DNA of 39,420 nt from Cyanophora paradoxa CCMP329 (lineage: Eukaryota; Plantae; Glaucophyta): positions 1 to 39,420 of the forward strand of contig QPMI01000025.1 of the NCBI GenBank assembly GCA_004431415.1, given 5' to 3'. Below the pieces are notes generated by a model, which was not told the origin of the DNA, searched no databases, and worked only from the letters and a program-made list of their open reading frames with translations. This document shows, in pieces, positions 752 through 22,755 of the stretch. Both the position numbers and the translations under genes were made by a program. Each line of letters starts with the position of its first letter. Positions within the stretch are counted from its first letter, which is position 1.

Positions 752-2097
752 ATGGATATCACTTCCACTCTTCAAAGACTTTCGCTGAAAGAAGCCCTAA
801 CAACCCCAGAAGAGGCGAAAGCCTTTTTCCTGGATAACTCCCTTATGCTTGGTCTCGAATCCAAATCTAAGCCAGTTCTAGTTGTTGTGAATCCAGCAAT
901 ACTTTTGAGAATAATGTTGGAAATCGCATTTCCTTCAAGCTACCTCGCTACAATTTCTGTGGAAAACTCGAACTTGCTTTCGACCTTCCAGCCATCACGT
1001 TTGCTGGTGATACTGACCTAGTTCGCAATGGATACACTCGCCCAGTTGGTGCTTTAGTTCAGCGACTTGAAATTACCTATGGATCTTACACCTACCATAT
1101 TCCATCTGATTTCCTTGCTCATTTCCCCCTGGTCTATTATTCGGAGGATCAACTAGCTAAAAAGAAGCGATCAATGGGCATGGTTCATGGCATCCTGCTC
1201 ATGGAACCAACCGCCTTGGTGGCTCATTTTTGTTGAAATCCCTGTGCCTTGGCTAAATCACTACCTTCCCCTTGGTGCTTTATCTGGTGAAATGGTTGTT
1301 ACTGTTTGGTTTAAGGATGCTGGAAAGGGTTATGTTGAAACTTCCTATGGTGGTCGCTCCTCCTGTTGTTGGTGGGACAGTTGCTGATAAGACAGAAGAT
1401 GATGGTCTTGGTGATACTGCTAATGCCACACTTGCCATGTTGGTCAAAATATCACACTTTCAGTCTTGGTGCAACAACTCCTGTTTTTTATTACTTCTCC
1501 TCGCCTTTACATGCATGCTATTAATGTTTCTGATGAGCTTTTCGCTACTGTATTGAAAAGTTAAGACACTGGCATGGCTATTCCCTCCCTTGATATTGGA
1601 TTTGTAGATGCTAGTGCTTTCCCTGCCAAGGGCAATGCCCAACCCAATCGAATTAACCTCTCTCAAATCTCAGGTCTTGTATATGCTCTGCTTGTTTCAG
1701 TTCGTGATATGAACTGTTGACAAATCCAATGGCTCCCACAGTGTTCTTAAGACCTATGCCAACTCCAAAGACATACATTACAACTGAAATAAATGGTCAG
1801 CGACTTTTTGCCACTGAGCCAATTTCCCTACTCAAAGGTGCTGAGCTAATTGCTGATGCCTTCAAATGCTCTAACATGGATAAGGTTGCTGATCGCTATG
1901 TCCTTTCAGGACTCCCATTCTGCCTTGATGGAGAAAAGGCAATTCGAAATATTGCCCAGTCTGGTTTTGTCGATTTAACAAATTCCTCCTCTTCATTCCT
2001 CACCCTCTACATGCCTTCAGATAAGGTAATCGATGTTAATGTTCGCGCTCTCATGCATTCGTTTATAATTTTGGACAAGGATGGATTACGCGATTAA
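752..2097 (+). pseudogene. Double jelly-roll major capsid protein (NCLDV/PLV-like), frameshifted
   Basis: Stitched frames give GNRISFKLPRYNFCGKLELAFDLPAI..YTRPVGALVQRLEITYG, IFVEIPVPWLNHYLPLGALSGEMVVTVWF, PRLYMHAINVSDE and EINGQRLF..PFCLDGE..SGFVDLTN..VNVRALMHSFIILDKDG. These are colinear with conserved blocks of NCLDV-type capsids. Total length is about 450 codons. Confidence 0.75.
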
Positions 2098-2169: not shown

Positions 2170-2940
2170 ATGACTGATTTGGATGAATTTGTGGCTGGTG
2201 AAATGATAGAACCACCATTTCGTGTATGCAATAGGAAAATCAGCAACTGGTAAATCAGAAGCTGTAAAGTATTGGTTAAAGCAGTTGCATGATGCCAAAA
2301 AGATTGATGTTGTATTAGTTGTGAGTGGAACCAGCTTCAATCATTTCTGGGATAAAGTGCAACATGCAACTGGGAAAATGGGATGCCCCTTACATTGCTA
2401 AATTGCTAGATGAGAGGCAAGAGAAAATAGAAAAGGTGAACCTGTTAACCAATTGTGTGGTTTTAGATGATTTAATCGATAATGAGATAGTCGATCTCAC
2501 AAGGATAAAATATCGGATCTCTGTATTCCAGAGGTCGCCATTCGAAAATATCCATTATCTGCATCACACAAAAGCTAAGGAAAGTCTCTTCGACTATTCG
2601 AGTTAATTCGGACTATGCTATGTTTCTAAGTGCTGCAAATCGCAAAGAACTGAAGCCATAGAGGAAGAATACAATATAATGCGAAATAAAGAGGATTTTA
2701 CAAGATGTTTGAAGAGTATGTTCACTCCTATCAGTAATATTTTGGTCCTCTGCAAACTACTCAGTTAAATACTATGTAGATAAAGCTGAGCTTGTGAAAG
2801 ATTTCCCATTTCCTCGCTTCCACAGGAAGCCAAAAAAGAAAGAAGATGAACTGAAACCACCAGAGAAAGAGGAAGCCCCTAAAGAAGTGAAAAGCCAAGT
2901 CCATAGCAATAAATTGATGCGATATAAACGCGGTTTATAA
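2170..2940 (+). pseudogene. A32/FtsK-HerA-type genome packaging ATPase, frameshifted
   Basis: Walker A GKSATGKS (2234-2257) followed by VVLVVSGT, Walker B VVLDD, the A32 motif LYSRGRH and IRVNSDYAMF, spread over successive frames. An in-frame alternative ATG lies at 2143. Confidence 0.85.
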
Positions 2941-4905: not shown

Positions 4906-7498
4906 ATGAACAAAATCGAGAAATTCGCCACCCCTGTTGAAATGCTACATTCCTTAGTACTCTCATTGGTGATCGCAACAAGGTCACCCATGTATTTGAA
5001 TTCTGCCGAAGATGCCCTTGAAGCCATTGATAATAGCAAGGTTAAGACCTGGGCTGAATGCATTCAACCTGAGCAAGTGACCAGAGTTTACCTGGACCTG
5101 GATAAATCGCTGATTTGAAGGAGAACATTGCTGATAACTATGCTGAGGCGGAAACTGTTGTAAGAGAGATGAGAGATAAGCTATGGAAGCGATCTGGTAC
5201 CACTTCTATTAACGATATTGCTGTTGCAGTTCGCCATAGAAGGGTTTATTTGATTAAGGAGGATGTCACCAAGTTCAAGATTTCAGCCCACTTTATTATT
5301 AAATCGCTTGCATGCAAACATGAAGATATCCCCAAGCTTTTCAAAGCGATGGGATTGGTGAAAAATGAGGATTATGACAGTGGAGTTTACAGCTCCACAC
5401 AGAACCTAATCTGCCTCAATTGCTGCAAAGGTGAGACTCTGGATGCTCAAAATAAGTCGAAAAAAGATGTTGATAAAAACGTTTGCTTTAAGAAATTCGT
5501 TGACTGTGACAAAGTGTTAATGCGAAATGAGGACTTCTTTGTATCTTACTTCTCAGCTACTACTAAACTTGTGGATGAATCAAATATTTCTGCATTTGCA
5601 AATTATACTCCTGAGCCAAAACCAGTTAAAAAGGAGCCAAAAAGTGATAAAGTGAAGACTGAGAAGGTAGAAGCTGAAAAAGACACTGAACCCGAAAATC
5701 CTGTTACTTTCGAACTGCTACAAAGTGTTATAATGGGTCTCAATGCTGAAAGAGCCAGCGAGTATAAGACTTGGATTGATGTTGGACTGGTCATCATCAA
5801 TGTTGGGGAAGACAACAAATTTACCCCTAAAATGCAGGCTGAACTCTTCCACCAATTCTCAGAACAGAGTGACAAGTATGATTATGATGAATGCCAGGAA
5901 AAGTTTACACAGCTTCGCAGAAGCAAGAAGAAGGCTGAGCCTGGCAAAGTGTTGACCTTCAAATCCTTGGTTTATTGGTTGAGCAAAGATAACAATGAGC
6001 TTTTCAAGGAACTCTTCCCCAAAAAGTATGCATTCCTACCAGAGGACACAGATGAAATCGATTACAAGACTGCAAGTATCCCTCCTTTGGCTGAACATTA
6101 CAATGTGCATAAGAGGTATTTCAATGCTCGCATGCATCATGTTGAAAATGTTGGTTGTGTGATGCTCTGGGATGAACAACTACTTTGCTGGATGCCCAAA
6201 GACATTGGAAAACTGTCTACAAAGCATTTCCCCCACTTGATGCATAAGGTGATTGTGAATGAGGGGACAGATAATGAGAAAGAGAAATGGGAGCAATCAT
6301 TTAGGAAATGGATTGTGGATCCAACAGCCACAAGATCAACTTACATGGATTTCCTCCCACCTCCTGCTACTCTCAGTGCAAAATGCAAGTCTGTATTTAA
6401 TCTCTATCCAGGAATGAAGGTCGACCATCAGCAATTCGAAAATGCTCCAGAGGATGTAACTGCTGAGATGATTAAGCCTTTCCTTGATCACTTGTTCTTA
6501 ATGTCTGGTGAGGATCAAAATACCTATGAATATCTGTTGAAATGGTTTGCCCACATGCTGCAAAAGCCTGGGGAACTCAATGGAGTATCCTTAATCTTCA
6601 TTGGTGAACAGGGAACTGGTAAGAATGTGTTGGTTGATACTTTCCAAAAGAAGATACTTGGAGATGCCCTGAGTTATGCAACTGGTAAGCCAAAAGAGGA
6701 TCTGTTTGGTCGATTTGCCCACAATAGAGAGGATAAGATCTTGATTGTTGTGAATGAAGCCTCAGGCAAGGACACATTCGAAAATAATGATATGCTTAAA
6801 GATCTCATTACTTCTGATAAGATTGTTATTGAACACAAAGGGATAGATTCATACACAAAAAGCAACTTTGCCAGGATTATATTCACCAGCAATAACAACA
6901 TTCCAGTTAAAATTGAAGCTGGAGATAGGCGATTTGTGGTTGTTGAAGTTAGTAAGAAATTCGCAAAGGATAGGTCATACTTCCTTCCACTTGTAAAATG
7001 GCTTAATGATCACTGCAATATTCGAAACATTGCCCACTATTTGAGAACCAAAGTTGAATGTGAGGATGTGAACTGGATTGCTGATAGACCCTTACAAATA
7101 AATACTATTTAGCCCAGCAGGTGTGCGCTCCAATCATCCTTATGTTCACTAAGTGGCTTGTGGATCGAGGCTTAATTTCCGAGAATAAATGCAAGTCTGG
7201 TAGCCTTGTGGAAACCTGGAAATGGTTCCAGGAGTTCATTACCAGCAATAAATATAAAAACGATTATAATAGTCGCAGATATTATACAGAAATGCGAAGT
7301 GTTACATATATCCAAGTGAAAACTACAAATGGTAAACAATACTATCATTTCCTATTCCCACAAGTATTTGAGGAATTCAGAAAGATGAAGCTTGTAGATG
7401 ATGAGACTATTGAGGAAGAAGCTAATCCAAGGATGAAACAGGACCTACCTGCTGCTGATCCTGATGCATCAGATTATGATTCTGATGTTGAAGTTTAG
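4906..7498 (+). pseudogene. AEP primase (PrimPol-like) - PriCT-2 - SF3 helicase; one frameshift near 5115 and an in-frame TAG at 7110-7112
   Basis: AEP motifs RVYLDLD, KISAHF and YDSGVY. PriCT-2 motif YKTWIDVG..FSEQSDKY. Walker A GEQGTGKN, Walker B IVVNEA, motif C IIFTSNN and GDRRF. ORF 7121-7498 is in frame after the stop. Confidence 0.85.
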
Positions 7499-7740: not shown

Positions 7741-8145
7741 ATGGCTGGAACAGATCATGATTCTGGATCGATCTATATGATTGAGAGTCAGGAAATGAAC
7801 AAAGTCTACATAGGAAGAACCTCACAGCCACTTCAAAAAAGATGGAGACAACACAAATCAGGTCAAATGCCATCTACAGCAGACCTATGCAAGGCTTCTG
7901 ATGTGAAGTTCTCAGTCCTGTATTCAAGTAAGAAGGGTGGGCATGAAGACCTAATGAACAGAGAAGCATATTACATGTATCTCTTTGAACCTTGGATAGT
8001 CAATTTACAAAAACCGAAATCCCGATTTAGGATTAATAGGTTTTGCGATTCCATTCAGAGGAAGCCAGTGGATCCATTAAAACATTTTAAATTGCGTTTA
8101 GAACATCCTAAAATAAAATATCCCCTTAGAATAGGAACAAGTTAG
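7741..8145 (+). CDS. GIY-YIG endonuclease
   Basis: SIYMI...VYIGRT..LQKRWRQH..REAYY..VN matches the GIY-YIG pattern (Y, YIG, R, H, E, N). Confidence 0.85.
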   Translation: MAGTDHDSGSIYMIESQEMNKVYIGRTSQPLQKRWRQHKSGQMPSTADLCKASDVKFSVLYSSKKGGHEDLMNREAYYMYLFEPWIVNLQKPKSRFRINRFCDSIQRKPVDPLKHFKLRLEHPKIKYPLRIGTS

Positions 8146-8150
8146 GAATA

Positions 8151-11100
8151 ATGCCCCGAATTACCAACAAACTCATAAGGGAGAAGAAATGGGAACTCAT
8201 GGGATTGCTGGGAACACTTTATGCAGCCCATGAAATTACAGAGGCTGAATATGACCGGGAAATAGATTTAATTGCAAAGGGCAGACCCACTTTAAGCAGA
8301 TTAACCAGAAAAGCAAATAACCTATATGATAAAATTGAAACCTTGGATGAATTGGATAGGCTTAGGCAAATAGAACCAGATGCAGAAGATGGAACAGCCA
8401 TGAATGAATTATATCGCTGGCTCACTTACAGAGCCAGAAGGGAAGTTGTTGTAGATGTGATTGAATTCCTGGACAGAATTGCTACATCCCTTCCCAATCG
8501 ATTAAAGCAGGGTTTAGATCAATTCAGGGCAATCAAGGTTCGCTTGTCTTTTATCTGCAAGTTCGTTAAAGTGAGCAATCCACAGGTTTGGATATCGAAA
8601 TACATTTACAGTGATTACTTTGTATTAACCAGGTCGAGAAATATTCGAACTGAGCTGAATAAAGCAGCCCAAATGTGTCAGGAGCAGATGAATGTGGTTG
8701 ATAGCTATCGCTTAGAAAGAATTGAAATACTCAGAGTGGCTATTATGAGTTATGCTCCAACTGGTGGATGCTTTCTACAAACCCCAGAGTGGATTGCTAG
8801 GAAGAGAGCCACAGTGAATATTCGAAATATAGATGATTCCTGCTTCGAAAATGCGATTTTAGCCTCGATTTACAGAAAATCTATTAACTCTCATAAGAGG
8901 AATGAGCTTTCACAATATCGCAAATGGAAATACTCAGCAATCGCTTATAATCCGCTGGCTCTCAATTTCGACAATATCCCATTCCCTGTTGCCTGTGATG
9001 CTGAAATAATTGATAAATTCGAGGCTCAAAATGCAGGCATTAGCATTAATATATTCGGAATCGATGGAGAGGTTGTTTATCCCCTGCATCAATCCAGTTA
9101 CCCAGGCAGAAAGCATAAGGTTAATCTCATGCTGATATTTGATGATGAAGGGAATGGTCATTATATTACAATCATGTCCCTTTCAAGATTATTGAAAGTA
9201 AACCATGAAACATACAATGATCAGAAGTTACACTACTGTGACACATGCTTATCTCGATTCAGGTCTGAGGCTAAACTCACTGCTCATGTGGACTCAAATA
9301 GATGCATTGATTGGAGACTCTCAAAGGGAATCACACCTAAACCTGAGACCACCATAGAGTTTGGACTGAAAAACCTCAGGAAAACTGTTTGGCTTCCTGT
9401 TGTGGTTTACTGCAAGATTGAACATAGAAGCATCCCCATTGATGCATCAAAATCTAAGAGGGAAGTCTCAGCAGTCAACCTGAGAGTAGTCACTGGGCAG
9501 ATGTTCAGGAGTTTCGATTTGAGGGTCAGGATCCAATGGGAGGTCTCTTTGAATGCTTGGAGTCCAAAGCAAGAGAACTAATCGATTTCCTGTTTACCAA
9601 CATTCCTATGAATGAACTCACAGATGAGCAGAAAGCAATTTACAGAGCTACCAAACACTGTTACCTTTGCAGTGAGAGGTTCACTAAGGAGAACTTCAAA
9701 TGCAGGGATCATGATCACCACACAGGTCATTACATTGCACCTGCATGCAGAAACTGCAATCTCCATAGGAGAATCTCAAAGCAAACAAAAGTAGCAGTGG
9801 TTGTTGACCAAATGGATGACTGTGGGACATTCATTTTCAGAAAAATAGCAGGCATGGGTGATAAAAAGCGAATCGAAATCCTTTCGAAAAACTTTGATCA
9901 ATACCTTTCATTGCAATGGGTCTTTACAAGTTCATTGATGCAAGTAATTTTATGGAATTTGGGGCTGCTGATGTAGATGAGTTAATGGACAAATTCCAAG
10001 CCTTCAGAAGGCTTTCACACACAGTATATGGATTGGACCCAGTTCATTATGTATCTGCACCTGGGTTATCTTGGGATGCTATGCTTAGGACCACCAAGGC
10101 AAAAATAGAGCTTATAAGTGATGTAGAGCAATACGAATTTGTTGAGAGGGGAATCAGGGGTGGCTTTGCAACAATGCCTTGTAGGTATGCTGAGGCTGAT
10201 GGTGAAAACTCCCACATTATGCTGTTTGATGCTAACAACTTGTATGGCTACTGTTTGAGTCAGCCAATTCCAGTTGGTGATTTTAGATGGGAGACCGAAT
10301 TCAACCCACAAGATAACAGATCCAGTTTCCTAGAAGTTGATCTGGATTACCCAATTAGGCTGTTTCTAGATCACAGTGATTTCCCCCTAATTATTAACAA
10401 GAAAATAGTAGAATATGCGGAATTATCACAATATCAAAAGAGCCTATTAGATCTCTCAGGAGAAGAGCTTGATAAAACCCCAAAGCTAACTGCAACCTTT
10501 GGTTCTGTGGCAAACTATGTGATTTCTGAGCCTCTTCTGCAATATCTGTTGGACAAAGGGGTGAAATTAAAGAAAGTTCACAGGGTCCTATCATTTACTG
10601 TGGCTCCTGTAATGAAACCCTACATTGAGCTGAACACTGAGATGAGAAGGAAAGCAGTGAATAAATTCGAGGCTGATTTCTATAAACTCATGAATAACTC
10701 AATCTATGGGAAATGCATTGAATCTTGCAGAGGTAGATCTGTGGTTAAGATTGCAAACAGTGAGAAACTGTTTATGAAATATGCAGCCTCTCCATTGGTG
10801 AAATCAACCAGCCCCATAAACGAAAAAGCAGTTGCCTTTGAGTTTTACACAAAGCATGTGAAACTAGATAAGCCTGTTGCAATTGGGGCTTATGTTTTGG
10901 ATGCTGCCAAACTGTATAATTACCAATTCTTTTATGATACTGTAAGGACCCAGTGGACAAAAGCCAAGTTACTATTCCATGATACTGATTCCTTTTGTCT
11001 ATATATCGAATCTAAGACCCTCCAAGAGGACCTAGATAATATATCCTATAATCTGGACCTAGGGGGATCCAACAGAATGACCCCAGGTAAATACAAAAAT

Positions 11101-11394
11101 GAGATGCCAGGTTCTGCTATATTGGAATATGTGGGTCTGAGAGCCAAAGTTTACAGTTTCAGAACTGCTGAGATTGAGAGAAGTAAGCTCTCTGGGACTT
11201 CAACTGAGGAACTCCAATTTAATGATTTTAAGCAGTGTTTATTTGCAGGTATAAGCAAGACTGTGACTGCCAAGCAGAAGAGAAGGGCAGATCACACAAT
11301 AATAGATACTGTAAGTAGAAGGGTTGCCCTAAACTGCTTTGATGCAAAGAGATACATCTTACCAGATGGTATTAATTCTGTTCCTTTTAATTAA
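8151..11394 (+). pseudogene. Protein-primed family B DNA polymerase with N-terminal OTU-like Cys/His region, Zn finger and EndoVII-like insert; at least two frameshifts (near 9500 and 9915)
   Basis: Three ORFs (8151-9581, 9536-9976, 9916-11394) are colinear with the intact element-2 PolB. Motifs: NIRNIDDSCF, GHY, CDTC..H, CYLC..DHDH..ACRNCN, IRGG, DANNLYG, KLMNNSIYGK, HDTDS, RAKVYS. Confidence 0.9.
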
Positions 11395-11397
11395 GAG

Positions 11398-12782
11398 ATG
11401 CCAGCAACTGGAAGAATAGTTAGAAGAACCACTGAGCAACTGCAAGGTAACCTACTGCCCATCACAATTCCAAAGGAGGAAAAGGGGAATCTCGAATTGT
11501 AAAAAAGTCAGAGATGAAAGAGCTTGTCCCAGTAGAGATCCCAGTTGCTATTGCAGTGAAAGAAACCAGCAAGATTGCCAAGAGATTCTATGATGTGAGA
11601 ACTGGTTACAAAGGGCTTCAAGCTATGAGGGCTGAGTTACCTGATGAATCCTATAAGCAGTTGCAAGAGTTCTATAAAAAACAAGAGGTAGTTCAGATCA
11701 ATGCACCAGCTATATCTAGGAAGAGAGATCCCATGGTCCCAATCAGGCAACCCCTTGATACCTATGTGATTGATTTGCTCTTTTTCCCAGCTTATAAGAA
11801 ACAAAACAATGGCTATGATACCTTTATGACTGCTATGGAATCAACACTGAGAACTGGGTATATCATACCTATAAGAGATAAATCAGCTCTCACTACATTA
11901 GCTGCATTTAAGCAACTTGAAATGAGAGTGGCAAGACCCATAGTAAAAGTTCAATCAGATGCTGGGAGTGAATTCCAAAATCGAATATTCCAGGAGTATT
12001 TATCTAGTAAATACATAGAACACCAAGTGAGTGGAACTGCTGACCATAGAAGCCAAGGTCGAATTGAAGCCTTTAACAAGCAGATTAAGAGACTGATCAC
12101 AAACTACTGCATAGCTAATAACACAGCTAGATTCTTTGATGTGTTAGGTGATATTGAGTATAATTACAATAATACAGTTCACTCAGCTACTAAGATGAAG
12201 CCAGGTGAAACTACAGAGGAGCATTACAGGTATATAGTGGGATTAGAAGATGAGAGATTCAAGAAATCAATAGCTTATCTTGATACCATGCAGCCTGGCA
12301 TGTTTGTTAGAGTGAAAGTTGAGAAGAACCCCTTTGCTAAACAGGGTAACAATTGGTCTAGGATGGTTTACACAGTTGATAGTAGGGAAGGCTTTAAGTT
12401 TAAGCTAAGGAGTCCCACTGGTGAGATCATAGATAACAGGTTTGCATTCCATGAGCTGTTGCCTGTGAATGCAGTTGAGTATCTGGAAACACCTACAGTG
12501 GATGCCTTGGAGCAAGCTAAAGAGGAAGCCAGGGTTGATGCTGCTATAAGGAGAGAGGGCATTGAGGCTGCTAATGAAGTCCCAGATAAGCCTTTGATAG
12601 AAGCTAGAAAGGAGAAGACTGGCAAGGTTAATAGGGAACTCAAAAAGCTCACTATAGCAGGGACACAGAAACTTTCAGAAGTGAATAGCCAGAGATGGTA
12701 TAATGACTTTCAGACTACTAAGGAGTCATATACAGCCCCTAAACCTCAAAGAACACTAAGAGAAAGGACCAAAACTAGCTAG
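11398..12782 (+). CDS. RVE (retroviral-like DDE) integrase, Polinton type; true start probably ATG 11398 with a frameshift near 11490
   Basis: DDE triad in VIDLLF / QSDAGSEF / IEAFNKQIK, then YNNTVHSATKMKP and an SH3-like VRV..F.K..NWS segment. 11398-11513 aligns with the N-terminus of the element-2 integrase (RR.TE..LPI.IP.EE..RI.KKS). Confidence 0.9.
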
Positions 12783-13359: not shown

Positions 13360-13530
13360 GACGAAAACCCATGCATTATGACATCATATCATTAAACCCC
13401 ATACAAAACACTAAAATGCATGTATCTCTTCACCAACTCATCATCTTACAAAGATAAAAACAGATTCGGAATCCTCTTAACGAGACCAGCGTGACTATGT
13501 AAGTATCATAGGCTCAATAATTCATATGTT

Positions 13531-14420
13531 AATAAGCATCTCCCCTTCATTCCCCCTATTATATAATATTTATATTAAAGTGGACTCAAGGTTGACTCAT
13601 ATTAATCGTAAAAGTAGTAAAAGTATATGGATTTTGTTACGAATTCAATGCAAGGGTTGACTAAGTGGGTTGAGTTGACTCAAATTTCACAGAAAATATT
13701 TGGGACCTAAAGTTTTCTAAAAAGGATTTCAAAAAATGTGTCAACTCCCCCCACTTAGTCAACCCTGACCATAAACAGTAAGGATTTGAGCTAACATGTA
13801 TCACAAAGTGAACATTTTGAGTCCACTTAGAAGATCCACCTAACAATTTAGAGTCAAATTTACTTGGGAATTCGATTTGTATGAAAAAGTGAGTCCACCC
13901 TGACCATATTCAATAAGCATTCCTCTTAATCCCCTTGTTTATATTTACATTGATTAATATTTAATACTAAGTGGACTCATGGTTGATTCATATTAATCGT
14001 AAAAGGAGTAAATGTATATAAAAATGTGACCATTTCAATGCTAAGGTTGACTAAGTGGGTTGAGTTGACTCAAATTTCAGAGGAAATTTTGAGATCCAAA
14101 GAATATTCTATAAAAGATTTTGAAAAATGTGTCAACTCCCCCCACTTAGTCAACCCTGACCATATACAGTAAGCATAAGAACTTAAATGTATCACAAAGT
14201 GAACATTATGAGTCCACTTAGAAGATCCAATTTTGAAATATAAGTTGATTTTGCTTGAAATTTCAAAGTTGATCTAAAAGTGAGTCCACCCTGATTGATT
14301 ATGGTAACAAAGTTGACTAAGTTGACTAAATTGAGTCATCTTAAGAAATTCAAGGAGACTAAGAGTTCAAAATGTTTATGAAAAGTGAGTCAACTTAGAC
14401 CACTTATGGTAACAAAGTTA
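13531..14420. repeat. Two diverged ~390-bp tandem units (13531-13903, 13912-14294) plus a degenerate tail, each containing the GTTGACT iteron/IR module
   Basis: GGTTGACTAAGTGGGTTGAGTTGACTCAAATTTCA occurs at 13655 and 14045. GTCAACTCCCCCCACTTAGTCAACCCTGACCATA occurs in both units. Offset is 390-391 bp. Confidence 0.9.
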
Positions 14421-14455
14421 AATATTTAATTGATTTAATAGGAAAAGAACATGAT

Positions 14456-14682
14456 TTAATCGAATTTATTGATATAATTCCGATTAGATTCATTTAGGAT
14501 TCAATTAAGATTAATCGAAGTTATAGATATAATTCCGATTAACTACAATTAAGATACAATATCGATTAATCGAGTTTATCGATATAAAATCGATTAAATT
14601 AATTGAAAATGCATTTAAAAATATGAAAATTCATGTGAAAATTCAAATAAATTAATCGATTTTATTGATATAACATCGAATC
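14456..14682. repeat. AT-rich quasi-palindromic 31-bp motif, three copies at 55-bp period plus a fourth abutting the hairpin
   Basis: TTAATCGA.TTTAT.GATATAA..(T/C)CGATTA-like copies start at 14456, 14511, 14566 and 14652. Confidence 0.8.
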
Positions 14683-14755
14683 ACACATATGAATATTCAT
14701 ATTTTAATCCTGAGGCGGAACGCCGAGGGATTAAAATATGAATATTCATATGTGT
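14683..14755 (+). other. Terminal fold-back hairpin of element 1 (28-bp perfect arms, GGCG-GAA-CGCC cap)
   Basis: ACACATATGAATATTCATATTTTAATCC (14683-14710) + TGAGGCGGAACGCCGAG + exact reverse complement (14728-14755). Confidence 0.92.
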
Positions 14756-16419
14756 CCTGTCCAGATGTGGAAGCGCTGGTCTTTGTTGCCCTTCCCAGAG
14801 AGGGCACCTGCCAATGTCCTCACAAGGAATTTGCCAGTCTCTTGATCTTTGAATGGCTCATACACGATTTTCTTGATTTCTTCCATGACATTCCCATCAA
14901 TCATAGGGGCATATGGATAGCCACAAGTCCTACTGACATACTCATCAGCTTTGGCTGGGCGAAAGACCTTATTTTGAAGGTCATAGACTCCATTGGTAAA
15001 CCCAATCAGCTCCTTAGATTCATCCATACTGGCAGCTATTTCAGTGTCAGCAAAGTGAGCCTTGGCCTCTTTGATGATGGAATCTTTGAATCCACATTTC
15101 AGGAGCTGTTTGGAAATTTCAAGGCATTTCTTGGCATTCTCCTCATACTTTGAGCTTTCATCTGGATCAGCAGCAGCTGAACGAGTGTTTTCCATTGCCT
15201 CCTTCATAAAAAGCTTCATGACATCAGTGGAAAGCACTTTGCGCAGTGTATGGGGTTCCTTTTCAGCTCTCCACAGTCCAGTGAGCTTATTCCTGACAAA
15301 CCAGATGTCTTTTTGATTGGCATCATAGCGGAATTGGTCTTTTTGTGTGTGGTACAGGACTTCAGCCACATTGTAATGACCCCCATTTGAAGCAATGGCA
15401 TTTTTAATGGCCTGCTTGAGGTCTCCCTTATTGGTAAACAGCTGAATATATAGATCCAGATTATCAGCTTTGAGCCAATAGACAAGAGAAGCATATGCCA
15501 ATGGCTTTACTGAGCTACCTTTTTGGAAGCTCTGCCAAGCCTTGTCACACGCCTCAGCCCTATACTTGCTGCTCTGTTGGCTGAATTTGTGCCAGATGGC
15601 CAGTACTTTGTCCTCAGGCATTTTCTTGTCTTTCATAGTGCTTGTCAGGGCCAAGCCAACATTAATCCAGTCAGCATAGCCATCAGCTCGTTTTTCACTG
15701 AGTCCCATCACAAGCTTTTCTAGCTCTTCAGTGGTGATGATTTCGCTGGAATAATCATTATTTTTGGGCAGCTGCTGGGCAGGCTCCTCCTTCTCTGGAA
15801 GAGTGAGCAGGGCCTCCTTGCCAGTGAGAAGCTGGACAAAGAAATCAGTGTCCTCATGGGATGTTAGCTTGGTGAACACAGTGTTCCAGCATGGTTCCTC
15901 ATAGGTGCTGCTCTTGTCAGCAAGAGCCTTCTCTTTACAGCACCCAAGGCACACAAGCGCCCTGTTGTTGTTGTAAACAGATGGATCATAGTCCTCATGA
16001 GGCTTGAGCCCAGCCCTCTCAAGGAAAACAGGGAAATCCCTGTAGATGCCATGAAGGGTGGTACATACCATGTGGGCACTCACTTTGTAGCATGGATCCT
16101 GTGTGTCTTTTTTTATCAGCAGCCTTGATCTGGTGGAGATGGCAATGGTGCTGATGTGGACACCAAGTGCCTTGGCCAGCTTTTCAGCCTTGGAGTTAAT
16201 TAGCCCAAGTCCCTCATCATCAACCTCATCAACAGGCAGAACCTGTTCGAAATCAATGTAGAGCTTGGTGAATTTATGGCCACTCAAGTACTCAGCCATG
16301 TGCTTGTTGCCTGAGGCAATCAATTTGAGTGCCTCAGTGACCCTGATGGTCACAGTGCTGGCTTCGCGACTGCCAATGATGCTTGTTAGGAAGGTGCCAA
16401 TGATGCTGGTGGATGCCAT
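14756..16419 (-). pseudogene. AEP primase - PriCT-2 - D5_N - SF3 helicase, truncated at the start of Walker A
   Basis: AEP motifs KLYIDFE, KVSAHM and YDPSVY. PriCT-2 YADWINVG..WHKFSQQSSKY. D5_N LIGFTNGVYDL..FRP. Reading stops at FHIWTG, where G.G.NGK is expected. The final HI* codons come from the element-1 hairpin. Confidence 0.88.
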
Positions 16420-16533
16420 TCTACTATAGGGTGAGATAATTATTTCAGTGAACTATACCCTTAAGTACTTTTCGAAAAAAGGAGTAACTCAAATCAATTT
16501 TTCGGACCCCCCTCCCCCCTGCCCCCTGCCCCC

Positions 16534-16725
16534 TCACACATAGGGATCCCGCTTTCTCGGCCGCCCCCTCCTGTCTGGGGTCGCCTCCTCAAACAGATAC
16601 CTGATACACAGGAGAGCCCCAGCCTTGTATGTGCTGACCCTCACGTATGTTTTGTGGAGCTCGCGAAACTCTGGATCGTTTTGAATCCTGCGCTTGATGT
16701 ACCTCATTTGCTTGGTGTACGCCAT
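16534..16725 (-). CDS. 63-aa basic protein with AT-hook (RRGRPRK)
   Basis: MAYTKQMRYIKRRIQNDPEFRELHK...RRGRPRKRDPYV. AT-rich leader upstream of ATG 16725. Confidence 0.55.
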   Translation of the reverse strand: MAYTKQMRYIKRRIQNDPEFRELHKTYVRVSTYKAGALLCIRYLFEEATPDRRGRPRKRDPYV

Positions 16726-16834
16726 TGCTGGATGTGTTCCTCTTATAGTATAGTTGAGATTTCTTTTTAAATAGGGATCGCGGGGTTTATTCTCATTGAG
16801 CGCTGCGAATTTTCCACAATATACCCATTTAAAG

Positions 16835-16850
16835 ATTATTTTCGTACCTA
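16835..16850 (+). promoter_or_regulatory. Candidate element promoter motif ATTATTTTCGTAYCTA
   Basis: Followed by TATATAAG and ATG 16874. Matches 4333-4348. Confidence 0.5.
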
Positions 16851-16873
16851 TATATAAGTACAACCCCCCAACC

Positions 16874-19800
16874 ATGCCCCGCCCCAGCCACTACCAAATT
16901 AAGGAGCTCCAGGACAAGATTCTCGGGAATCTTGCGTTCCTACTGGCCAATCACTCCATCAGTGAAAGCGAATATGAATCATACATAAGCCAAACCAACA
17001 AGAAGCTCAAGGGGCTTCAAGCTCTCAATCGAGAGCTATTAGGGAAAATCGACGCCCTTGATGAGACTGATCGCCTTGGCCACATTCAAGTCGAACAAAC
17101 AACCACAACTCAAGTCAGAGGAGATGAATACACTACCTTAATAAATGAGCATCGTGCTCTAAATAATAAATACATCGATTTCACAATCAGGGCTCAGCAC
17201 CAGATCCTGACCACTCAAGAGTTTATAGACACCTACTCTGAGGAACTCCACACAAGGCTCCAAGATGCCATCAATTCACAGATGTCGATTAAAACTCGCT
17301 TTACATTTGTCTGTCGCTTTTCGAAGGCCAATAATTCGAGAGATTTCATAACGAAACATATCTACAGCAGCTATGCCATAATGACAAGATCTCGAATCCT
17401 CACAAAAGAGACTGCTAAACTTGCCAAGGAATGCCAGTCGCAAATTAATGTCACAGATAGCTACAGATTAGAGAGCATCCAAGCCCTCAGGGTCATTGTT
17501 CTCTCCTTTAAACCCATCTCAGGAGGTGCTTTTATCCCACTCCCAGAGTGGCTAAAAAATAAACGAGCTATTGTCAATGTCAATAACAAGGACAATAGAT
17601 GCTTTGAGTATGCTATCCTTTCTTATATTCACAAGGACGAAGTAAATAGCCACAAGCGCAATGAGACTTCCCAATACAGGAGGTGGTTCAAAAAAGAACT
17701 GAATTTCGAGGGCATTGAGTTTCCTGTAAAGGCAGATGCTGATACTATTGATCTCTTTGAAAATCTCAATCCAGCGATCTCTATTAATATTTACGACCCC
17801 TCTAACTCTACAGAAGAAATTAATCTACTCCACAACAGCTCCTCAAGGAACAGGAAACACCAAGTGGATCTGCTGCTAATTACAGACGAAAATGGTAACA
17901 GTCATTATACCACAATATTCAGCATGTCCAGAGTCTTAGCTAAAAATGATAAGCAGCGACTCCATTTCTGTAAAACCTGTTCCAACCACTTCAAGACTGA
18001 GGAGAAGCTTCAATCCCACATTCAAAGCAAACGTTGTGTGGATTGGAAGACAAGTGCTGGAGAGACCCCAAAACAACCCACATTCATTGAATTTGGTCTT
18101 AAACATCTCTCAAAGACTGTATTCCTCCCCGTGATTGCCTATTGCTATTTCGATTATGAAACAGATATTTCTGGTATGTTCAAGATCAAATCAATCTCAC
18201 TGACAGCTCTTCATAATAATAGAGTAGTACTCACTAAAACCCCCTCCAACATCTTTGAGCTCCTGAGTACCCTCGACAGCACAGCCCCAGAGCTATTCAA
18301 AGCCCTATTTACCAACATCCCAATGTCACTGACCAAAGAGCAGAAACGTACCCATTACCTTGCTAAAACCTGCTACATCTGCCAAGGTGATTTCACCCAA
18401 GACAATTATAAAGTGAGGGATCACGACCACCAAACTGGCGATTTTGTAGGCACTGCTTGTCGCAAATGTAATCTCCACAGACGCACCAGCAATCTCACCA
18501 AGATTCCCATAGTGACCAATGATCTGTCCCTATCTGGAACGCAGATATTCAAGGCAGTCGCCTTAAATCCCGAAAAAAGGGTGGAAGTCCTCGCGAAATC
18601 GTTTGACAACTACATGTCGATCACTTGGGGTTGCTTTAAATTCATTGACATCAAAAACTTTATTGATTATGGCGTCCAGAATGTCAATGACCTTCAAGAA
18701 AAGTTCCAGCTTTTCCGCCAGAAATCACACAAAACTTTTGGGATGGATGCTGCCCACTATGTCTCAAGTCCAGGGCTTTCGTGGGACAGCATGCTATCGA
18801 TTACCAAGCCCAAAATCGAACTCCTCTCCAACCTTGATATGTACAACATGGTTGAAGGCATGATCAGGGGAGGCCTTTCGATTATGAATCATAAATATGC
18901 CAAAAAGGAAAGGGACAGCCACATTATATATTTGGATGCCAATAACCTATATGGTTATGCCCTGTCCCAAAAGCTACCCCTCTCGAATTTCCAATGGCAC
19001 CCAGAACCCTCAAATTACGACCTGTCATCAGCAGAGGGGGCCATCTTAGAAGTTGACATCCATTATCCCCAGCACCTCCATCAACTCCACAAAGAACTGC
19101 CTCTTGTCATCAAGAGAACAGAAGATGGGCTACAAGCAGCCTGCGAAGACATATCCAACTTTGTGGTGTCGAAACCTTTGCTCCAATTCATGGTAGCGCA
19201 AGGCTTAAAGGTCACCAAAATCCACAGGGTGCTAACATTTACACAGGCTGCCTTTATGAAGCCCTACGTCGAATCCAATGCCCAAAACCGCAGAGCAGCC
19301 CCTTCCAAACCCGAAAAGGACTTCTTTAAAATCATGAACAATAGCCTTTTCGGCAAAACCATTGAGAAAGTGAGAGGAAGGTCTAATGTCAAGATTGCCA
19401 CCAACGAAAAGCAATTTATGAAATACGCCAGATCGCCCCTACTCAAAGCAGAAACAAGACTAAGCGATTCAGCAGTAGCCTTCGAAATGCTACAAAAAGA
19501 TGTCAAGTTAGATAAGCCCATAGCAATTGGGGCAGTTGTTTTAGATCTTGCCAAGCTGCGCCTATTTGATTATTATTATAACACCATCAAGCGGAAATGG
19601 CCAGACTGTAAACTGCTTTTTACTGATACAGATTCGCTTTGCCTTCAAATAAATTCGAAAACTATAGCAAAAGACCTACAAGACATTGATACCCACCCCA
19701 CAGAGCTTGGCAAGTTCAAAGATGAGTTTGAGGGCAGAACCATTACTGAATATGCTGGGGTAAGGCCGAAATGTTACAGCATTAAAACAGGTGATGAGGA

Positions 19801-19969
19801 AATAAAAAAACTGGCAGGTGTTTGTAAGGAGACCATTCAAACAGATCTGTCTTTCCAAGATTATAAAGACCATGTGCTCCACCAAAAACCCAAGCAAATC
19901 GAAATGACTGTCCAAAAGAAGCTTGAAAATGAGACCTACAATGTGAAGATGTCAAAGATTGCTTTCTAA
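16874..19969 (+). CDS. Protein-primed family B DNA polymerase (uninterrupted), OTU-like/Zn-finger/EndoVII-like modules, degenerate exonuclease
   Basis: Start MPRP.. at 16874 aligns with element-1 MPRI... Motifs: NVNNKDNRCF, SHY, CKTC..H, CYIC..DHDH..ACRKCN, IRGG, DANNLYG, KIMNNSLFGK, TDTDS, RPKCYS. Confidence 0.93.
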   Translation: MPRPSHYQIKELQDKILGNLAFLLANHSISESEYESYISQTNKKLKGLQALNRELLGKIDALDETDRLGHIQVEQTTTTQVRGDEYTTLINEHRALNNKYIDFTIRAQHQILTTQEFIDTYSEELHTRLQDAINSQMSIKTRFTFVCRFSKANNSRDFITKHIYSSYAIMTRSRILTKETAKLAKECQSQINVTDSYRLESIQALRVIVLSFKPISGGAFIPLPEWLKNKRAIVNVNNKDNRCFEYAILSYIHKDEVNSHKRNETSQYRRWFKKELNFEGIEFPVKADADTIDLFENLNPAISINIYDPSNSTEEINLLHNSSSRNRKHQVDLLLITDENGNSHYTTIFSMSRVLAKNDKQRLHFCKTCSNHFKTEEKLQSHIQSKRCVDWKTSAGETPKQPTFIEFGLKHLSKTVFLPVIAYCYFDYETDISGMFKIKSISLTALHNNRVVLTKTPSNIFELLSTLDSTAPELFKALFTNIPMSLTKEQKRTHYLAKTCYICQGDFTQDNYKVRDHDHQTGDFVGTACRKCNLHRRTSNLTKIPIVTNDLSLSGTQIFKAVALNPEKRVEVLAKSFDNYMSITWGCFKFIDIKNFIDYGVQNVNDLQEKFQLFRQKSHKTFGMDAAHYVSSPGLSWDSMLSITKPKIELLSNLDMYNMVEGMIRGGLSIMNHKYAKKERDSHIIYLDANNLYGYALSQKLPLSNFQWHPEPSNYDLSSAEGAILEVDIHYPQHLHQLHKELPLVIKRTEDGLQAACEDISNFVVSKPLLQFMVAQGLKVTKIHRVLTFTQAAFMKPYVESNAQNRRAAPSKPEKDFFKIMNNSLFGKTIEKVRGRSNVKIATNEKQFMKYARSPLLKAETRLSDSAVAFEMLQKDVKLDKPIAIGAVVLDLAKLRLFDYYYNTIKRKWPDCKLLFTDTDSLCLQINSKTIAKDLQDIDTHPTELGKFKDEFEGRTITEYAGVRPKCYSIKTGDEEIKKLAGVCKETIQTDLSFQDYKDHVLHQKPKQIEMTVQKKLENETYNVKMSKIAF

Positions 19970-19980
19970 TCCCAATATAG

Positions 19981-21351
19981 ATGTCATCAAAGATCACACG
20001 CAGACAAACAGAGTACGATGTGAGTATATTGCCAATCCCAATCCCTCAAGAGGAGAGATGGGGTCGCATTCAGAAAAAGAGTGACCTCAAAGCTTTAGTT
20101 CCTGCGGATATCCCAACTGCCATTGCTGTGCCTCACTTGGATCCCTTAGCAAGGACATTCTATGACACCAAGGTAGGATTTAAAGGCCTGGCTTCATTGG
20201 CCAAAGAGCTTCCAGATGTGCCAAGAAAGACAATCCGTAGATTCTATGATGCCCAAGAAATCAACCAAATAAATAAACCCCTCCCATCTGCCAAGAAGAC
20301 TGCCTATATCCCAATAAGACAGCCACTCGATACATTCGCTATTGATTTAGTCTTCTTTCCCTCATATAGCAAACAGAATCAAGGCTACAACACGTTCCTC
20401 ACAGCTGTAGAAAACACCACCAGACTGGGATTTATAATTCCAATGAGGGGCAAGACAGCAGAAGTCACACTGGAAGCATTTAAGGAGCTTGAGCGACAGG
20501 TTCCACGTCCAATTGTGAAGATACAAAGTGATGCTGGGAGCGAATTCCTGAACAAGGCATTTAAGGACCACTTAGAAGCCCAGATGATTGAGCACCAAGT
20601 ATCACAGGTTGGAGATCACAATAGCCAAGGCCGAATAGAGGCCTTTAATCGCACAATAAAGAAGCTAATTAACTCATATTGTATAGCGAATAACACTGTA
20701 AAGTTTTTCGACAAGCTCCAAGATTTTGCCTACAACTACAATAATACCATCCACTCAGCAACAGGGATGAAACCAGCAGAGACCACAGAGGTACATGTTC
20801 CCCTCATACTCGCAAAAGAAAACGAGAAATTCATGAAGTCAATTGAATATCTAAAGGACTATCCAGCGGGAACCCACGTGAGAACTAAAATAGAGAAGGG
20901 TCCATTCGCCAAGCAGGGCAATAATTGGAGCCGCGAAATATTTACAATAGAAGGAGTGGAGGGGTTCAAGTTTAGATTGAGGGACATTGCCGGAAAAATG
21001 ATTGATCGACTTTATGCCCACTACGAATTACAGAAAGTGGAAGCCGTGGAGTTCTTGGAAGCCCCATCAATAAATGTCATTGAAGAGGCAAAGAAAGAGG
21101 CCAGAACAGAGCGACTGTTGGCCAGAGAGGGGATTGAGAGGGCTCCAAATGTGCCAGATAAACCATTATTGGAGGACAGAGCAGGGAAGAAGAAGAAACA
21201 GGGGAGAGAGTTGGAGAGATTGAGGGTGGCGGGAACAGAGAGATTAGCAGGGGGGGCAGAGGCAGTAAGGTGGTATAGAGATTTCTCGAATTCAAAGGAG
21301 ACCTATGAAGCTCCAGCAATTTCCACGAGATCAAGGAGGAGGGCAGGATGA
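19981..21351 (+). CDS. RVE (DDE) integrase, Polinton type, intact
   Basis: AIDLVF / QSDAGSEF / IEAFNRTIK triad, YNNTIHSATGMKP and SH3-like C-terminal region. Full-length homologue of 11398-12782. Confidence 0.93.
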   Translation: MSSKITRRQTEYDVSILPIPIPQEERWGRIQKKSDLKALVPADIPTAIAVPHLDPLARTFYDTKVGFKGLASLAKELPDVPRKTIRRFYDAQEINQINKPLPSAKKTAYIPIRQPLDTFAIDLVFFPSYSKQNQGYNTFLTAVENTTRLGFIIPMRGKTAEVTLEAFKELERQVPRPIVKIQSDAGSEFLNKAFKDHLEAQMIEHQVSQVGDHNSQGRIEAFNRTIKKLINSYCIANNTVKFFDKLQDFAYNYNNTIHSATGMKPAETTEVHVPLILAKENEKFMKSIEYLKDYPAGTHVRTKIEKGPFAKQGNNWSREIFTIEGVEGFKFRLRDIAGKMIDRLYAHYELQKVEAVEFLEAPSINVIEEAKKEARTERLLAREGIERAPNVPDKPLLEDRAGKKKKQGRELERLRVAGTERLAGGAEAVRWYRDFSNSKETYEAPAISTRSRRRAG

Positions 21352-21357
21352 GACATC

Positions 21358-21540
21358 TGTAAAGGTTGTTAAGGGTTGTTAAGATTGTAAAGGGTGTAAA
21401 GGGTGTAAAGAGTGTAACGGGTGAACGGGGTGAACGGGGTGAACGGGGTGAACGGGGTGAACGGGTTGTTTGTATAAATTCCCGTGAGAAGGCATTTTCC
21501 TAAGAAAATATACAAAGAACCCGTTCACCCCATTCACCCT
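21358..21540. repeat. 9-bp tandem iterons (TGTAAAGGG-type grading into five GTGAACGGG) plus 23-bp inverted repeat
   Basis: GTGAACGGG x5 at 21421-21465. 21454-21476 versus 21509-21531 is a reverse complement with 1 mismatch and a 32-bp spacer. Confidence 0.88.
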
Positions 21541-21661
21541 GCTGGTGCCAAACTCATGTGTTCAATACCCCAGAGGGGGCCAACATACTGGTGCCAAAAA
21601 GACAAGATTAATACCCTAAGACCTGAAATAAATGCTTACTACCCTAGTACCTGAAACGCGC

Positions 21662-21736
21662 ACACATAGGGATACCCCTGATCCAAGCCTGTAGGCCGAA
21701 GGCCGGAGGGCTTGGATCAGGGGTATCCCTATGTGT
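21662..21736 (+). other. Terminal fold-back hairpin of element 2 (28-bp perfect arms, GGCC-GAA-GGCC cap)
   Basis: ACACATAGGGATACCCCTGATCCAAGCC (21662-21689) + TGTAGGCCGAAGGCCGGAG + exact reverse complement (21709-21736). Confidence 0.92.
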
Positions 21737-22047
21737 GCCGACCCCCGGGCAGGTGATCCTGGCGGGCGTCTCGGGCATGATGGGCTTCATCTCCTTCCAC
21801 GAGCTCGTCCCGACCGCCCAGCGCCACATCCCCCCCATGCACGCCTCCCTCGCCGTCGTCTCGGGGATGGCCGTGATATCGTTCTCCGTGTTTTTGCTAG
21901 GAATGTCATCTTAGCCCGCGTGTCCCGCCCCCGCACACCCTCCTTCCCGCCAGACCGGTACCGCCAGACCACTAGCAGCCTAAGTAACGGACTATCGCAA
22001 CTGGTATTCATTTATTTCAGTCGCTACGAAGATGTTCTATTCTACAA
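21737..22047 (+). repeat. 311-bp direct duplicate of 25131-25441 (end of last intron, last exon and 3' flank of ZIP gene)
   Basis: Identical by eye from GCCGACCCCCGGGCAG to GTTCTATTCTACAA. Offset is 3394 bp. Confidence 0.95.
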
Positions 22048-22755
22048 TGCGCACATCCTGTCCTTCCAATGAACACGCTTATCGAGGTATGCGCGTCGCT
22101 CGCGGAGCCCTTGCAGAGTGCGACGTTGCGTCAGGTGGAGAACACCGCAAACGGGAACAAGGTTGTCGTTCGCGTCAACGATCGCGGCCCTTATGCGGAT
22201 ACGCCAGAGGGAGACCCGCGAATCATCGATCTGTCCCACGGCGCCGCCAAGTACGTGCCGTGCTGACAGGTGTCACGCAAGTGCTCACGGTCCTCCTCCG
22301 CAGCCTGCTCAAGATGCTCCGGTCCGGAGTCTCTCCCGTTAAGCTCCGTGTCCTTCGGTGGCCGGAGAGCATCGACCGCGTGCGGGGGGTCGAAGCGTAC
22401 CGCCAGGTCTGCCGCCCGATCAGCCGGCCGCCGCTGCGCCACTGCTGATGCAGCCCTCGCGTAGTGGGTGGTGCAAGTTGGCTCCTTCGAAACACAAAAG
22501 CACGCGGAGATGCACGTGGCGGCGATGCAAAAGAAATGCCCGTGGGCCAGTGAGCTCTTCATGGTCGACCGGGCCCCGGCTCTCAGCGCCACAACGTCGT
22601 TACCGCTCCCCAGGCAAGCTTCTTTTCTATTTCCCCAGTTCAATTGGATCGCCGGCCTGACGGCATCGCAGCCCGATAGCGCAGCGTGCTACGAGCTCGC
22701 GGAACGGTTCAAGCAGGCGGGCGTCAAGACTTTGGTCACTAACCTCCGCAAATGA
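22048..22755 (+). pseudogene. rlpA: Spliced RlpA-like lytic transglycosylase (DPBB + SPOR), 5'-truncated
   Basis: Removing GT-AG introns 22087-22134, 22251-22303 and 22407-22464 gives CAHPVLPMNTLIE-VENTANGNKVVVRVNDRGPY..RIIDLSHGAANLLKMLRSGVSPVKLRVL..WVVQVGSF. The N-terminal ASWYG/TA.GE part is absent. Confidence 0.8.

What the first reader, a model, noticed from the sequence alone, without database searches (positions are those of the whole stretch)
14683..21736. Two diverged Polinton-like viruses end in the same co-varying 28-bp fold-back hairpin with a GAA mini-hairpin cap
Seen: 14683-14755 and 21662-21736 are each perfect palindromes with exactly 28-bp arms, beginning ACACATA and ending TATGTGT. 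The arms are 18/28 identical between elements and all 10 differences are compensated in the opposite arm. The cap stem also co-varies (GGCG/CGCC versus GGCC/GGCC) around a GAA triloop, flanked by G.A and T.G juxtapositions. Each TATGTGT falls exactly on an independently defined junction (helicase truncation; start of host duplicate). Known: canonical Polintons end in TIRs with 5'-AG..CT-3'. GNA triloops and sheared G.A pairs stabilise ssDNA hairpins at parvovirus ends and Streptomyces linear-replicon telomeres. Inference: the fold is strand-specific, favoured on the strand carrying the right 3' end, and pairs to the last base. It could be a self-primer, an end-patching template or an integrase attachment structure. 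I do not recognise this terminus from described Polinton/PLV families.
Basis: partly seen in the sequence, partly recalled or inferred. Interest (0 to 1): 0.9.

Follow-up and report, generated by a model that had tools for sequence, protein, structure and literature searches.

The report
Capped hairpin ends of integrated viruses
Two distantly related virus-like elements inserted in a microbial eukaryote's genome both stop at a 28-base-pair fold-back hairpin of the same design, which likely lets the viral DNA start copying itself from its own end, a kind of end already reported for related viruses in a 2026 preprint but never tested.

Summary
Both hairpins have perfect 28-bp arms and a GAA-capped stem. 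They are the true right ends of two nested Polinton-type elements (integrases 55% identical). In public DNA contigs, element A's hairpin stands at roughly 45-90 ends with no variant, 96% of them attached to viral DNA, and depth collapses just past TATGTGT. It is therefore not a MITE or an assembly artefact. The kind of end is not new: a 2026 preprint (10.64898/2026.07.28.741278) reports terminal palindromes in Halocafeteria virophages and Polinton-like viruses, with the same hairpin-priming model, and this scan noted such ends in at least three other genomes. What differs here: fixed arm length and cap across two families, and a protein-primed-type polymerase, whereas the preprint ties palindromes to other replicases. 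That polymerase has an altered priming loop and a deleted proofreading domain in both elements. Best reading (0.55): self-priming end that the integrase joins to host DNA at the terminal T. Strand specificity is weak (about 1 kcal/mol). Left ends, target duplications and cap orientation could not be seen; no relative with this end was found elsewhere.

The parts
14683..14755 (+). Terminal hairpin of element A: 28-bp arms, 17-nt cap with 4-bp stem and GAA loop; its last T is the element's right end
21662..21736 (+). Terminal hairpin of element B: 28-bp arms, 19-nt cap holding CCGAAGG; last T is the right end
14687..14702 (.). Perfect 16-bp dyad nested in A's arm; the same positions in B keep 5 of 8 pairs, 2 through double changes (possible dimer-binding site, inferred)
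752..2097 (+). Element A major capsid protein gene, broken into several frames
   Evidence: P0192 (456 aa) matches in pieces; P0192 scores 0.98 to clusters carrying Capsid_N/Capsid_NCLDV (12-18% of members)
2170..2940 (+). Element A probable packaging ATPase, in pieces
   Evidence: P-loop piece AAA_22 E 0.0045, below cut-off; a second piece matches 6 of 53 related loci, best E 4e-7
4906..7498 (+). Element A primase (AEP-like motifs, PriCT-2)-SF3 helicase, in pieces
7741..8145 (+). Element A GIY-YIG nuclease
   Evidence: E 1.5e-10
8151..11394 (+). Element A pPolB with endonuclease VII insert, in three frames
   Evidence: 43-49% identical to B
11514..12782 (+). Element A rve integrase
13529..14682 (.). 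Element A subterminal region: 391-bp and 55-bp repeats; candidate TIR whose inner border may lie near 13529 (inferred)
   Evidence: loose ends before 13529
14756..16419 (-). Element B primase (PriCT-2)-D5 helicase gene, cut at its P-loop by element A
16874..19969 (+). Element B pPolB, 1031 aa: TP-like domain, vOTU Cys/His, endonuclease VII, eroded exonuclease, palm with TPR1/TPR2
19981..21351 (+). Element B rve integrase, DDE residues D122, D184, E220
21564..21661 (.). Element B subterminal stretch; candidate TIR inner border near 21564 (inferred from one contig)
   Evidence: table 7
21737..22047 (+). Host flank of element B: intron end, last exon and 3' end of a ZIP-transporter-like gene, identical to 25131-25441
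   Evidence: Zip match E 0.0076, below cut-off

Best explanation
The two hairpins are the exact right ends of two integrated Polinton-type elements, and each likely works as a fold-back primer for copying the viral genome. Shown: the top strand can pair to its last base, which leaves the terminal 3' T paired on A14683 (or A21662) with the whole element as template. Inferred steps: after release from the chromosome the 3' end snaps back; the element's strand-displacing family B polymerase, helped by its SF3 helicase, extends it, giving hairpin-linked or hairpin-closed duplexes; the integrase (or the endonuclease VII domain) cuts after TATGTGT, 28 bp from the cap, and the integrase joins that T to host DNA; host repair copies the opened hairpin. 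One arm is thereby re-copied from the other, which would keep the arms perfect while their sequence drifts. The fixed arm length, the invariant first 7 bases, the nested dyad and the GAA cap would be the ruler and binding sites for these proteins.
For: End falls on the last paired base at both junctions. Same arm length and cap in families with 55% identical integrases and no similarity in the 300 nt upstream. No variant at 1% or more among 109 contigs laid on A's hairpin, core depth 8000, against hundreds of variant places nearby. A 3' end paired to an internal base is a primer-template junction, which would compete with protein priming (inference). In both polymerases the loop that is G-S-G-W in homologs reads (T/V)-D-S-Y; the column holding Ser in 25 of 26 homologs holds Asp in B; B's TPR1 region is 106 aa against 117-139 in 26 of 26 homologs. 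The same model was proposed for Halocafeteria elements.
Against: No free genome, left end or target duplication was seen. The polymerase keeps a TP-like domain, a Ser and a Tyr in or next to the alpha2-beta4 loop where the linking residue is predicted to lie, and the vOTU Cys and His; A's TPR1 is of normal length. So protein priming may persist. The preprint ties palindromes mainly to non-pPolB replicases. The energy gap between strands is about 1 kcal/mol. Both elements also encode a primase, which could make the primer. A strict G-S-G-W pattern was found in only 12 of the 30 loci L098-L127 (several are partial and the pattern is narrow), so loop variation is not unique to these elements. Only two families, from one host, carry the hairpin.
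Confidence: 0.55

Rival explanations
1. Protein-primed origin: the TP domain primes at the terminal ACAC repeat, and the hairpin only rebuilds a duplex origin or protein-binding site on the displaced strand, as with adenovirus panhandles (recalled) or Streptomyces end patching.
For: pPolB fold, best solved match phi29 polymerase E 4e-19; TP-like domain, loop Ser196/Tyr197 shared by A and B, vOTU Cys/His kept; Streptomyces telomeres combine terminal proteins with G:A-closed hairpins (PMC4513846 passages).
Against: Pairing to the last base hides the template end; the conserved G-S-G-W loop is changed and lacks the nearby Gly/Pro noted for linking residues.
Confidence: 0.22
2. Primase signal: the GAA mini-hairpin marks a single-strand initiation site for the element's own primase-helicase.
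For: B's cap holds CCGAAGG, the mini-hairpin of plasmid ssiA next to the RepB' primase contact (PMC13037366 section 4.2); both elements encode PriCT-2 primase-helicases, 30% identical in the primase part.
Against: Does not explain 28-bp perfect arms that end on the last base; A's cap has the reversed closing pair (G-GAA-C); priming inside the end would not copy the tip.
Confidence: 0.1
3. By-product: accidental fold-back repair of a broken end, with no function.
For: Raised by the preprint; fold-back copying makes perfect arms without selection.
Against: Identical 28-bp length and cap design in two diverged families, and no variant among about 45-90 ends.
Confidence: 0.06
4. Transcription stop hairpin of the kind used by giant viruses and virophages (recalled).
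For: It lies downstream of the integrase gene in both elements; related loci have long hairpins after genes (L083 5891-5967).
Against: It is 1.9 kb from A's integrase stop; nearer hairpins exist in both elements (13261-13359, 21419-21539); coincidence with the last base is not explained.
Confidence: 0.04
5. An independent 73-75-bp MITE or an assembly artefact.
For: Arms facing each other look like a tiny TIR element; the A-into-B junction is not bridged in run X5 and the B-into-host junction in none of 4 runs listed.
Against: Depth of the viral flank is 96% of the hairpin core (7670 vs 8000); the hairpin is assembled from short-read data independent of the window.
Confidence: 0.03

Closest known systems
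Terminal palindromes of Halocafeteria seosinensis endogenous virophages (subtypes 1, 2, 5, 6) and PLV subtype 4 (bioRxiv 10.64898/2026.07.28.741278; passages and section 7 read, supplements closed)
   Same: Palindrome at the tip of an rve-integrase, capsid-encoding element; same proposed hairpin priming; nested insertions.
   Different: There the palindromes go mainly with non-pPolB replicases and are 52 nt in subtype 5; no structured GAA cap or cross-family covariation is mentioned in the text I read. Here both elements carry a pPolB.
Polintons/Mavericks with an HNH/endonuclease VII-bearing pPolB (group label recalled); domain plan per Krupovic et al. 2024, PMC11071308 (passages and section 7 read)
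   Same: TP-vOTU-palm polymerase, rve integrase, DJR capsid, ATPase.
Mavirus-type virophages/EMALEs (PMC8547959 passages; PMC11071308 passages)
   Same: pPolB with a remnant exonuclease plus SF3 helicase and rve integrase; strain-specific insertions.
   Different: The words 'palindrom' and 'hairpin' do not occur in the EMALE paper's main text; capsid homolog here resembles Capsid_N/Capsid_NCLDV clusters.
Parvovirus hairpin ends and Streptomyces telomeres (PMC4513846 passages; parvovirus mechanism recalled)
   Same: 3'-terminal fold-back with G.A-closed loops.
   Different: No HUH Rep or Tap/Tpg among the 14 ORFs scanned; single long stem instead of rabbit ears.

Membership tests
Polinton/PLV (Preplasmiviricota, integrating) | Protein-primed-type family B polymerase | tested here: met
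   DNA_pol_B_2 for A; B model pLDDT 79.5 matches adintovirus, bidnavirus-like and phi29 polymerases
Polinton/PLV (Preplasmiviricota, integrating) | Retroviral-type DDE integrase | tested here: met
   rve E 2.5e-6 and 1.2e-4, both under Pfam's cut-off; D122 and D184 invariant, E220 in 90% or more of 50 aligned sequences
Polinton/PLV (Preplasmiviricota, integrating) | Double-jelly-roll capsid protein | tested here: met
   Element A only, through homolog P0192; no Pfam match; fold model unusable, pLDDT 34. B's left part is outside the window.
Polinton/PLV (Preplasmiviricota, integrating) | Packaging ATPase | tested here: inconclusive
   P-loop fragments at 2170-2940, weak matches
Polinton/PLV (Preplasmiviricota, integrating) | Terminal inverted repeats | tested here: inconclusive
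   Left ends outside the window. End depth 7670-8000 against about 3000-4200 inside A in run X5, and branch points at 13529 and 21564, fit two ends per element; the tool warns that depth is no copy number.
Polinton/PLV (Preplasmiviricota, integrating) | 5-6-bp target-site duplication | not testable with these tools
   No whole genome held; no contig spans an element
Canonical Polinton/Maverick | 5'-AG...CT-3' termini (recalled) | tested here: not met
   Right ends read ...TATGTGT-3'
Halocafeteria-type terminal palindrome | Palindrome forms the element's last bases | tested here: met
Halocafeteria-type terminal palindrome | Present at both ends, beside a TSD | not testable with these tools
   left ends not held
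Halocafeteria-type terminal palindrome | Preferential link to non-pPolB replicases (a tendency in the preprint, not a strict rule) | tested here: not met
   Both elements encode pPolB, plus a primase-helicase
Protein-priming pPolB | TP domain with linking Ser/Tyr between alpha2 and beta4 | tested here: inconclusive
   Domain topology present; homologs' Ser column is Asp, Ser lies one place on, no Gly/Pro
Protein-priming pPolB | vOTU Cys and His | tested here: met
Protein-priming pPolB | Intact exonuclease motifs | tested here: not met
   ExoI, ExoII, KGxYPY patterns absent in B, present in 21-24 of 26 homologs; span 21 aa vs 108-124; same loss seen by eye in A
MITE | Occurs free of the large element with its own flanks on both sides | tested here: not met
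   (element A)
HUH rolling-hairpin replicons (parvovirus, Helitron) | HUH Rep endonuclease | tested here: not met
   None among 14 ORFs scanned; parts of both elements lie outside the window

The most novel reading that the evidence does not exclude
A Polinton lineage whose protein-primed polymerase has switched to self-priming from a measured 28-bp, GAA-capped hairpin, with the integrase opening the hairpin end during insertion: a living intermediate between terminal-protein genomes and hairpin-ended genomes, in elements that are still moving.
Probability: 0.3. Interest if true: 0.8.

Novelty: new variant of a known kind. Interest (0 to 1): 0.5.

Why it matters
How most Polinton-like viruses start replication is unknown (abstract of the preprint). 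Terminal palindromes were reported once, without a test. This case adds two diverged families, which show what is held constant: arm length, the first 7 bases, a nested dyad and the GAA cap. It also puts the hairpin next to a pPolB with an altered priming loop. A 75-nt oligonucleotide, an intact polymerase gene and an intact integrase gene from element B make the priming question directly testable in vitro. The elements are multi-copy, and the window's two insertion sites were not seen bridged in the public runs examined, so they appear recently mobile.

Tried and rejected
No whole genome is held, so left ends and TSDs could not be read. Loose pattern in viral contigs: 74 matches, 0 of 74 palindromic, best 12 of 21 inner pairs. 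Strict pattern in metagenome contigs: 0. Integrase searches: 0 loci in viral contigs with the single protein or the 3-sequence alignment, 1 short locus in metagenomes, 22 and 33 distant loci with wider alignments. None of these 53 loci has an inverted repeat of 16 bp or more at a recognisable element end, apart from a 19-bp-arm hairpin within a 115-bp inverted repeat of L094; most lack their ends, so this says little. A covariance model of the two hairpins (arms only paired) found only the two source hairpins in 54 sources, 653 kb. Genome contigs was not scanned. Rfam: 9 matches, all far below gathering score; generic hairpin hits, rejected as miRNA. No RNA holder listed. Sequence search of PDB with pPolB found nothing useful. 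Capsid fold from a single sequence failed and was not searched. Flip/flop of the cap cannot be told from 31-mer contigs because the arm is 28 bp; both window copies have GAA on the 3'-end strand (2 of 2, uninformative). Scan notes by place and by integrase sequence: nothing. Paper searches; only the Halocafeteria preprint holds both 'polinton-like virus' and 'terminal palindrom', and 0 papers held 3 of 4 terms on covalently closed hairpin ends of Polintons. The library lacks most subscription papers, and the preprint's supplements, which may list palindrome sequences and which subtypes carry pPolB, could not be seen.
Full report
OBSERVATION. They are far beyond chance: longest arm 11 bp or less in 40 of 40 simulations, folding z of -13 and -11, 0 pattern matches in 100 shuffles. 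The 300 nt upstream of each share only 9 nt. Four corrections: the caps make them imperfect palindromes; B's stem extends 2 bp into host bases; compensation of all 10 arm differences is automatic if one arm is copied from the other, so only the arm length, the first 7 bases and one swapped cap pair speak for selection; and the strand preference is about 1 kcal/mol in the nearest-neighbour model, which may undercount mini-hairpin stability.

THE ELEMENTS. Window 1-21736 is about 40% GC against 60-80% in the host part. Element A runs from outside the window to 14755 and carries a capsid gene in pieces (homolog P0192; atlas score 0.98 to clusters with Capsid_N), ATPase fragments, a PriCT-2 primase-SF3 helicase, GIY-YIG, a pPolB with an endonuclease VII insert and an rve integrase. 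Many of its genes are frameshifted, from decay or assembly error; I cannot tell which. Element B (14756-21736 visible) has a primase-D5 helicase, a 1031-aa pPolB and an integrase. A and B are 55% identical in the integrase, 43-49% in the polymerase and 30% in the primase part.

ARE THESE TRUE ENDS? Fourteen of 24 listed public runs hold half or more of the stretch's words; I laid 4 of them, all as contigs. In run X5 the hairpin core of A has depth 8000 and its viral flank 7670. Host contigs have depth 180 and one rare junction 92, which gives roughly 45-90 ends; the tool warns that depth is not copy number. No variant reached 1% among 109 contigs laid. Mean depth drops from 26,500 (14748-14753) to 631 (14760-14765), the level of B's helicase gene. 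Two contigs run through 14756 without the hairpin; their upstream letters, read by eye, continue the helicase frame into its P-loop. So A's end is exactly 14755, copies do not extend beyond TATGTGT, and the hairpin is not a free MITE. For B, the host copy at 25131 fixes the junction at 21736. In all 4 runs a 347-nt host contig passes 21737 with 36 letters that are not B's end, and no contig bridges A into B in X5. Both insertions may be private to the window's genome, which fits recent mobility, but contigs show presence, not absence, and a mis-join cannot be excluded. One contig in 3 of 4 runs joins an A end to a B arm. TIRs are only inferred, from a roughly twofold depth rise and branch points at 13529 and 21564. 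Left ends, TSDs and cap orientation stay open.

THE POLYMERASE. B's model (pLDDT 79.5, 27 sequences) matches pPolBs of adintoviruses, bidnavirus-like viruses and phi29. It has the TP-like alpha/beta domain described in PMC11071308 (section read), with helix 177-193, loop 194-196 and strand 197-211. Homologs have G-S-G-W there (Ser in 25 of 26); both A and B read (T/V)-D-S-Y, with Asp in the Ser column and Ser one place on. That the homologs' Ser is the linking residue is my inference from the paper's stated position. The vOTU Cys and His are kept. ExoI, ExoII and KGxYPY patterns are missing in B but present in 21-24 of 26 homologs, and the ExoII-ExoIII span is 21 aa against 108-124; A shows the same loss. 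The window's B copy differs locally from run contigs at 18684-18698, so I make no claim on the ExoIII Asp. TPR1 is shortened in B only; TPR2 is normal. Protein priming is thus neither excluded nor secure.

MECHANISM. A strand that pairs to its last base offers a paired 3'-OH with the whole element as template. I think self-priming most likely (0.55): snap-back, extension by the strand-displacing polymerase, then a cut after TATGTGT whose 3' T the integrase joins to host DNA. This predicts the integrated layout seen (internal DNA, arm, cap, arm, host) and arms that stay perfect while drifting. Every step after the pairing is inferred. Rivals are protein priming with the hairpin as origin (0.22), a primase signal like plasmid ssiA, whose CCGAAGG mini-hairpin is in B's cap (PMC13037366 section 4.2; 0.10), a repair by-product (0.06), a transcription stop (0.04) and a MITE or artefact (0.03).

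WHAT IS KNOWN. bioRxiv 10.64898/2026.07.28.741278 (passages and section 7 read) reports palindromes within the TIRs, next to TSDs, in four virophage subtypes and one PLV subtype of Halocafeteria seosinensis, and proposes hairpin priming. It links them mainly to non-pPolB replicases. I found it, before reading the scan's notes, five of which describe such ends in at least three other genomes (unchecked AI notes, not counted as support). The cryptophyte PLV paper PMC12220804 and the EMALE paper PMC8547959 contain neither 'palindrom' nor 'hairpin' (passages); PMC12721341 and 10.1101/2022.07.28.501842 (passages) gave no terminal palindrome in what I read. No relative with this end was found in public viral or metagenome contigs.

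VERDICT. Real, very likely functional termini, of a kind described once and untested. The variant here adds a fixed 28-bp arm and structured cap shared by two families, and a pPolB with eroded priming loop and no proofreading domain. Interest 0.5; new variant of a known kind.

Noticed in passing
window 14756-14761; table 7: Two other contigs follow A's end with the same 6 bases as the window's flank and then diverge. About 0.01-0.07 such flanks are expected by chance (after the fact; the tool lists only some flanks). May be a target-site preference of A's integrase or a carried-along duplication.
   Followed up: partly
window 14756 to 21662; table 5: A low-depth contig in 3 of 4 runs joins an A end directly to the start of a B arm: an end-to-end insertion elsewhere in the genome.
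   Followed up: no
window 14720; table 7: One contig joins unrelated DNA at the GAA loop of A's hairpin, as expected from a break or insertion at the hairpin tip.
   Followed up: no
window 14687-14702 and 21666-21681: Each arm holds a nested dyad: perfect 16 bp in A; 5 of 8 pairs in B, two kept through double changes. Weak with two sequences.
   Followed up: partly
window 16874-19969 and 8151-11394: Both polymerases have lost exonuclease motifs and about 90 residues found in 26 of 26 homologs, an independent-looking parallel to mavirus pPolB.
   Followed up: partly
window 5169-7112 and 14746-16419: A and B share the primase part (30%) but their helicase parts match different families (DUF5906 vs D5_N), which suggests a module swap.
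   Followed up: no
window 22048-25441: Contig breaks at exactly 22047/22048 suggest that this 3.4-kb host unit with the ZIP-like gene is tandemly duplicated, with element B inserted in an intron of one copy.
   Followed up: partly
window 13261-13359, 21419-21539, 13564-14700: Further hairpins downstream of both integrase genes, and in A a 391-bp duplication, 55-bp repeats and inverted GTTGACTAAGTGGG motifs that recur at 7584, upstream of the GIY-YIG and polymerase genes.
   Followed up: no
L083 5891-5967; L094 94-146 and 15303-15355: A 37-bp-arm hairpin between convergent integrase and polymerase genes in one relative, and a 19-bp-arm hairpin repeated in inverted orientation 15 kb apart in another.
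   Followed up: no
window 12700-14946; Element A's contig depth relative to host differs between runs more than B's does (for example at 12824 and 14208); could be copy-number change or free copies, but depth is a poor measure.
   Followed up: no
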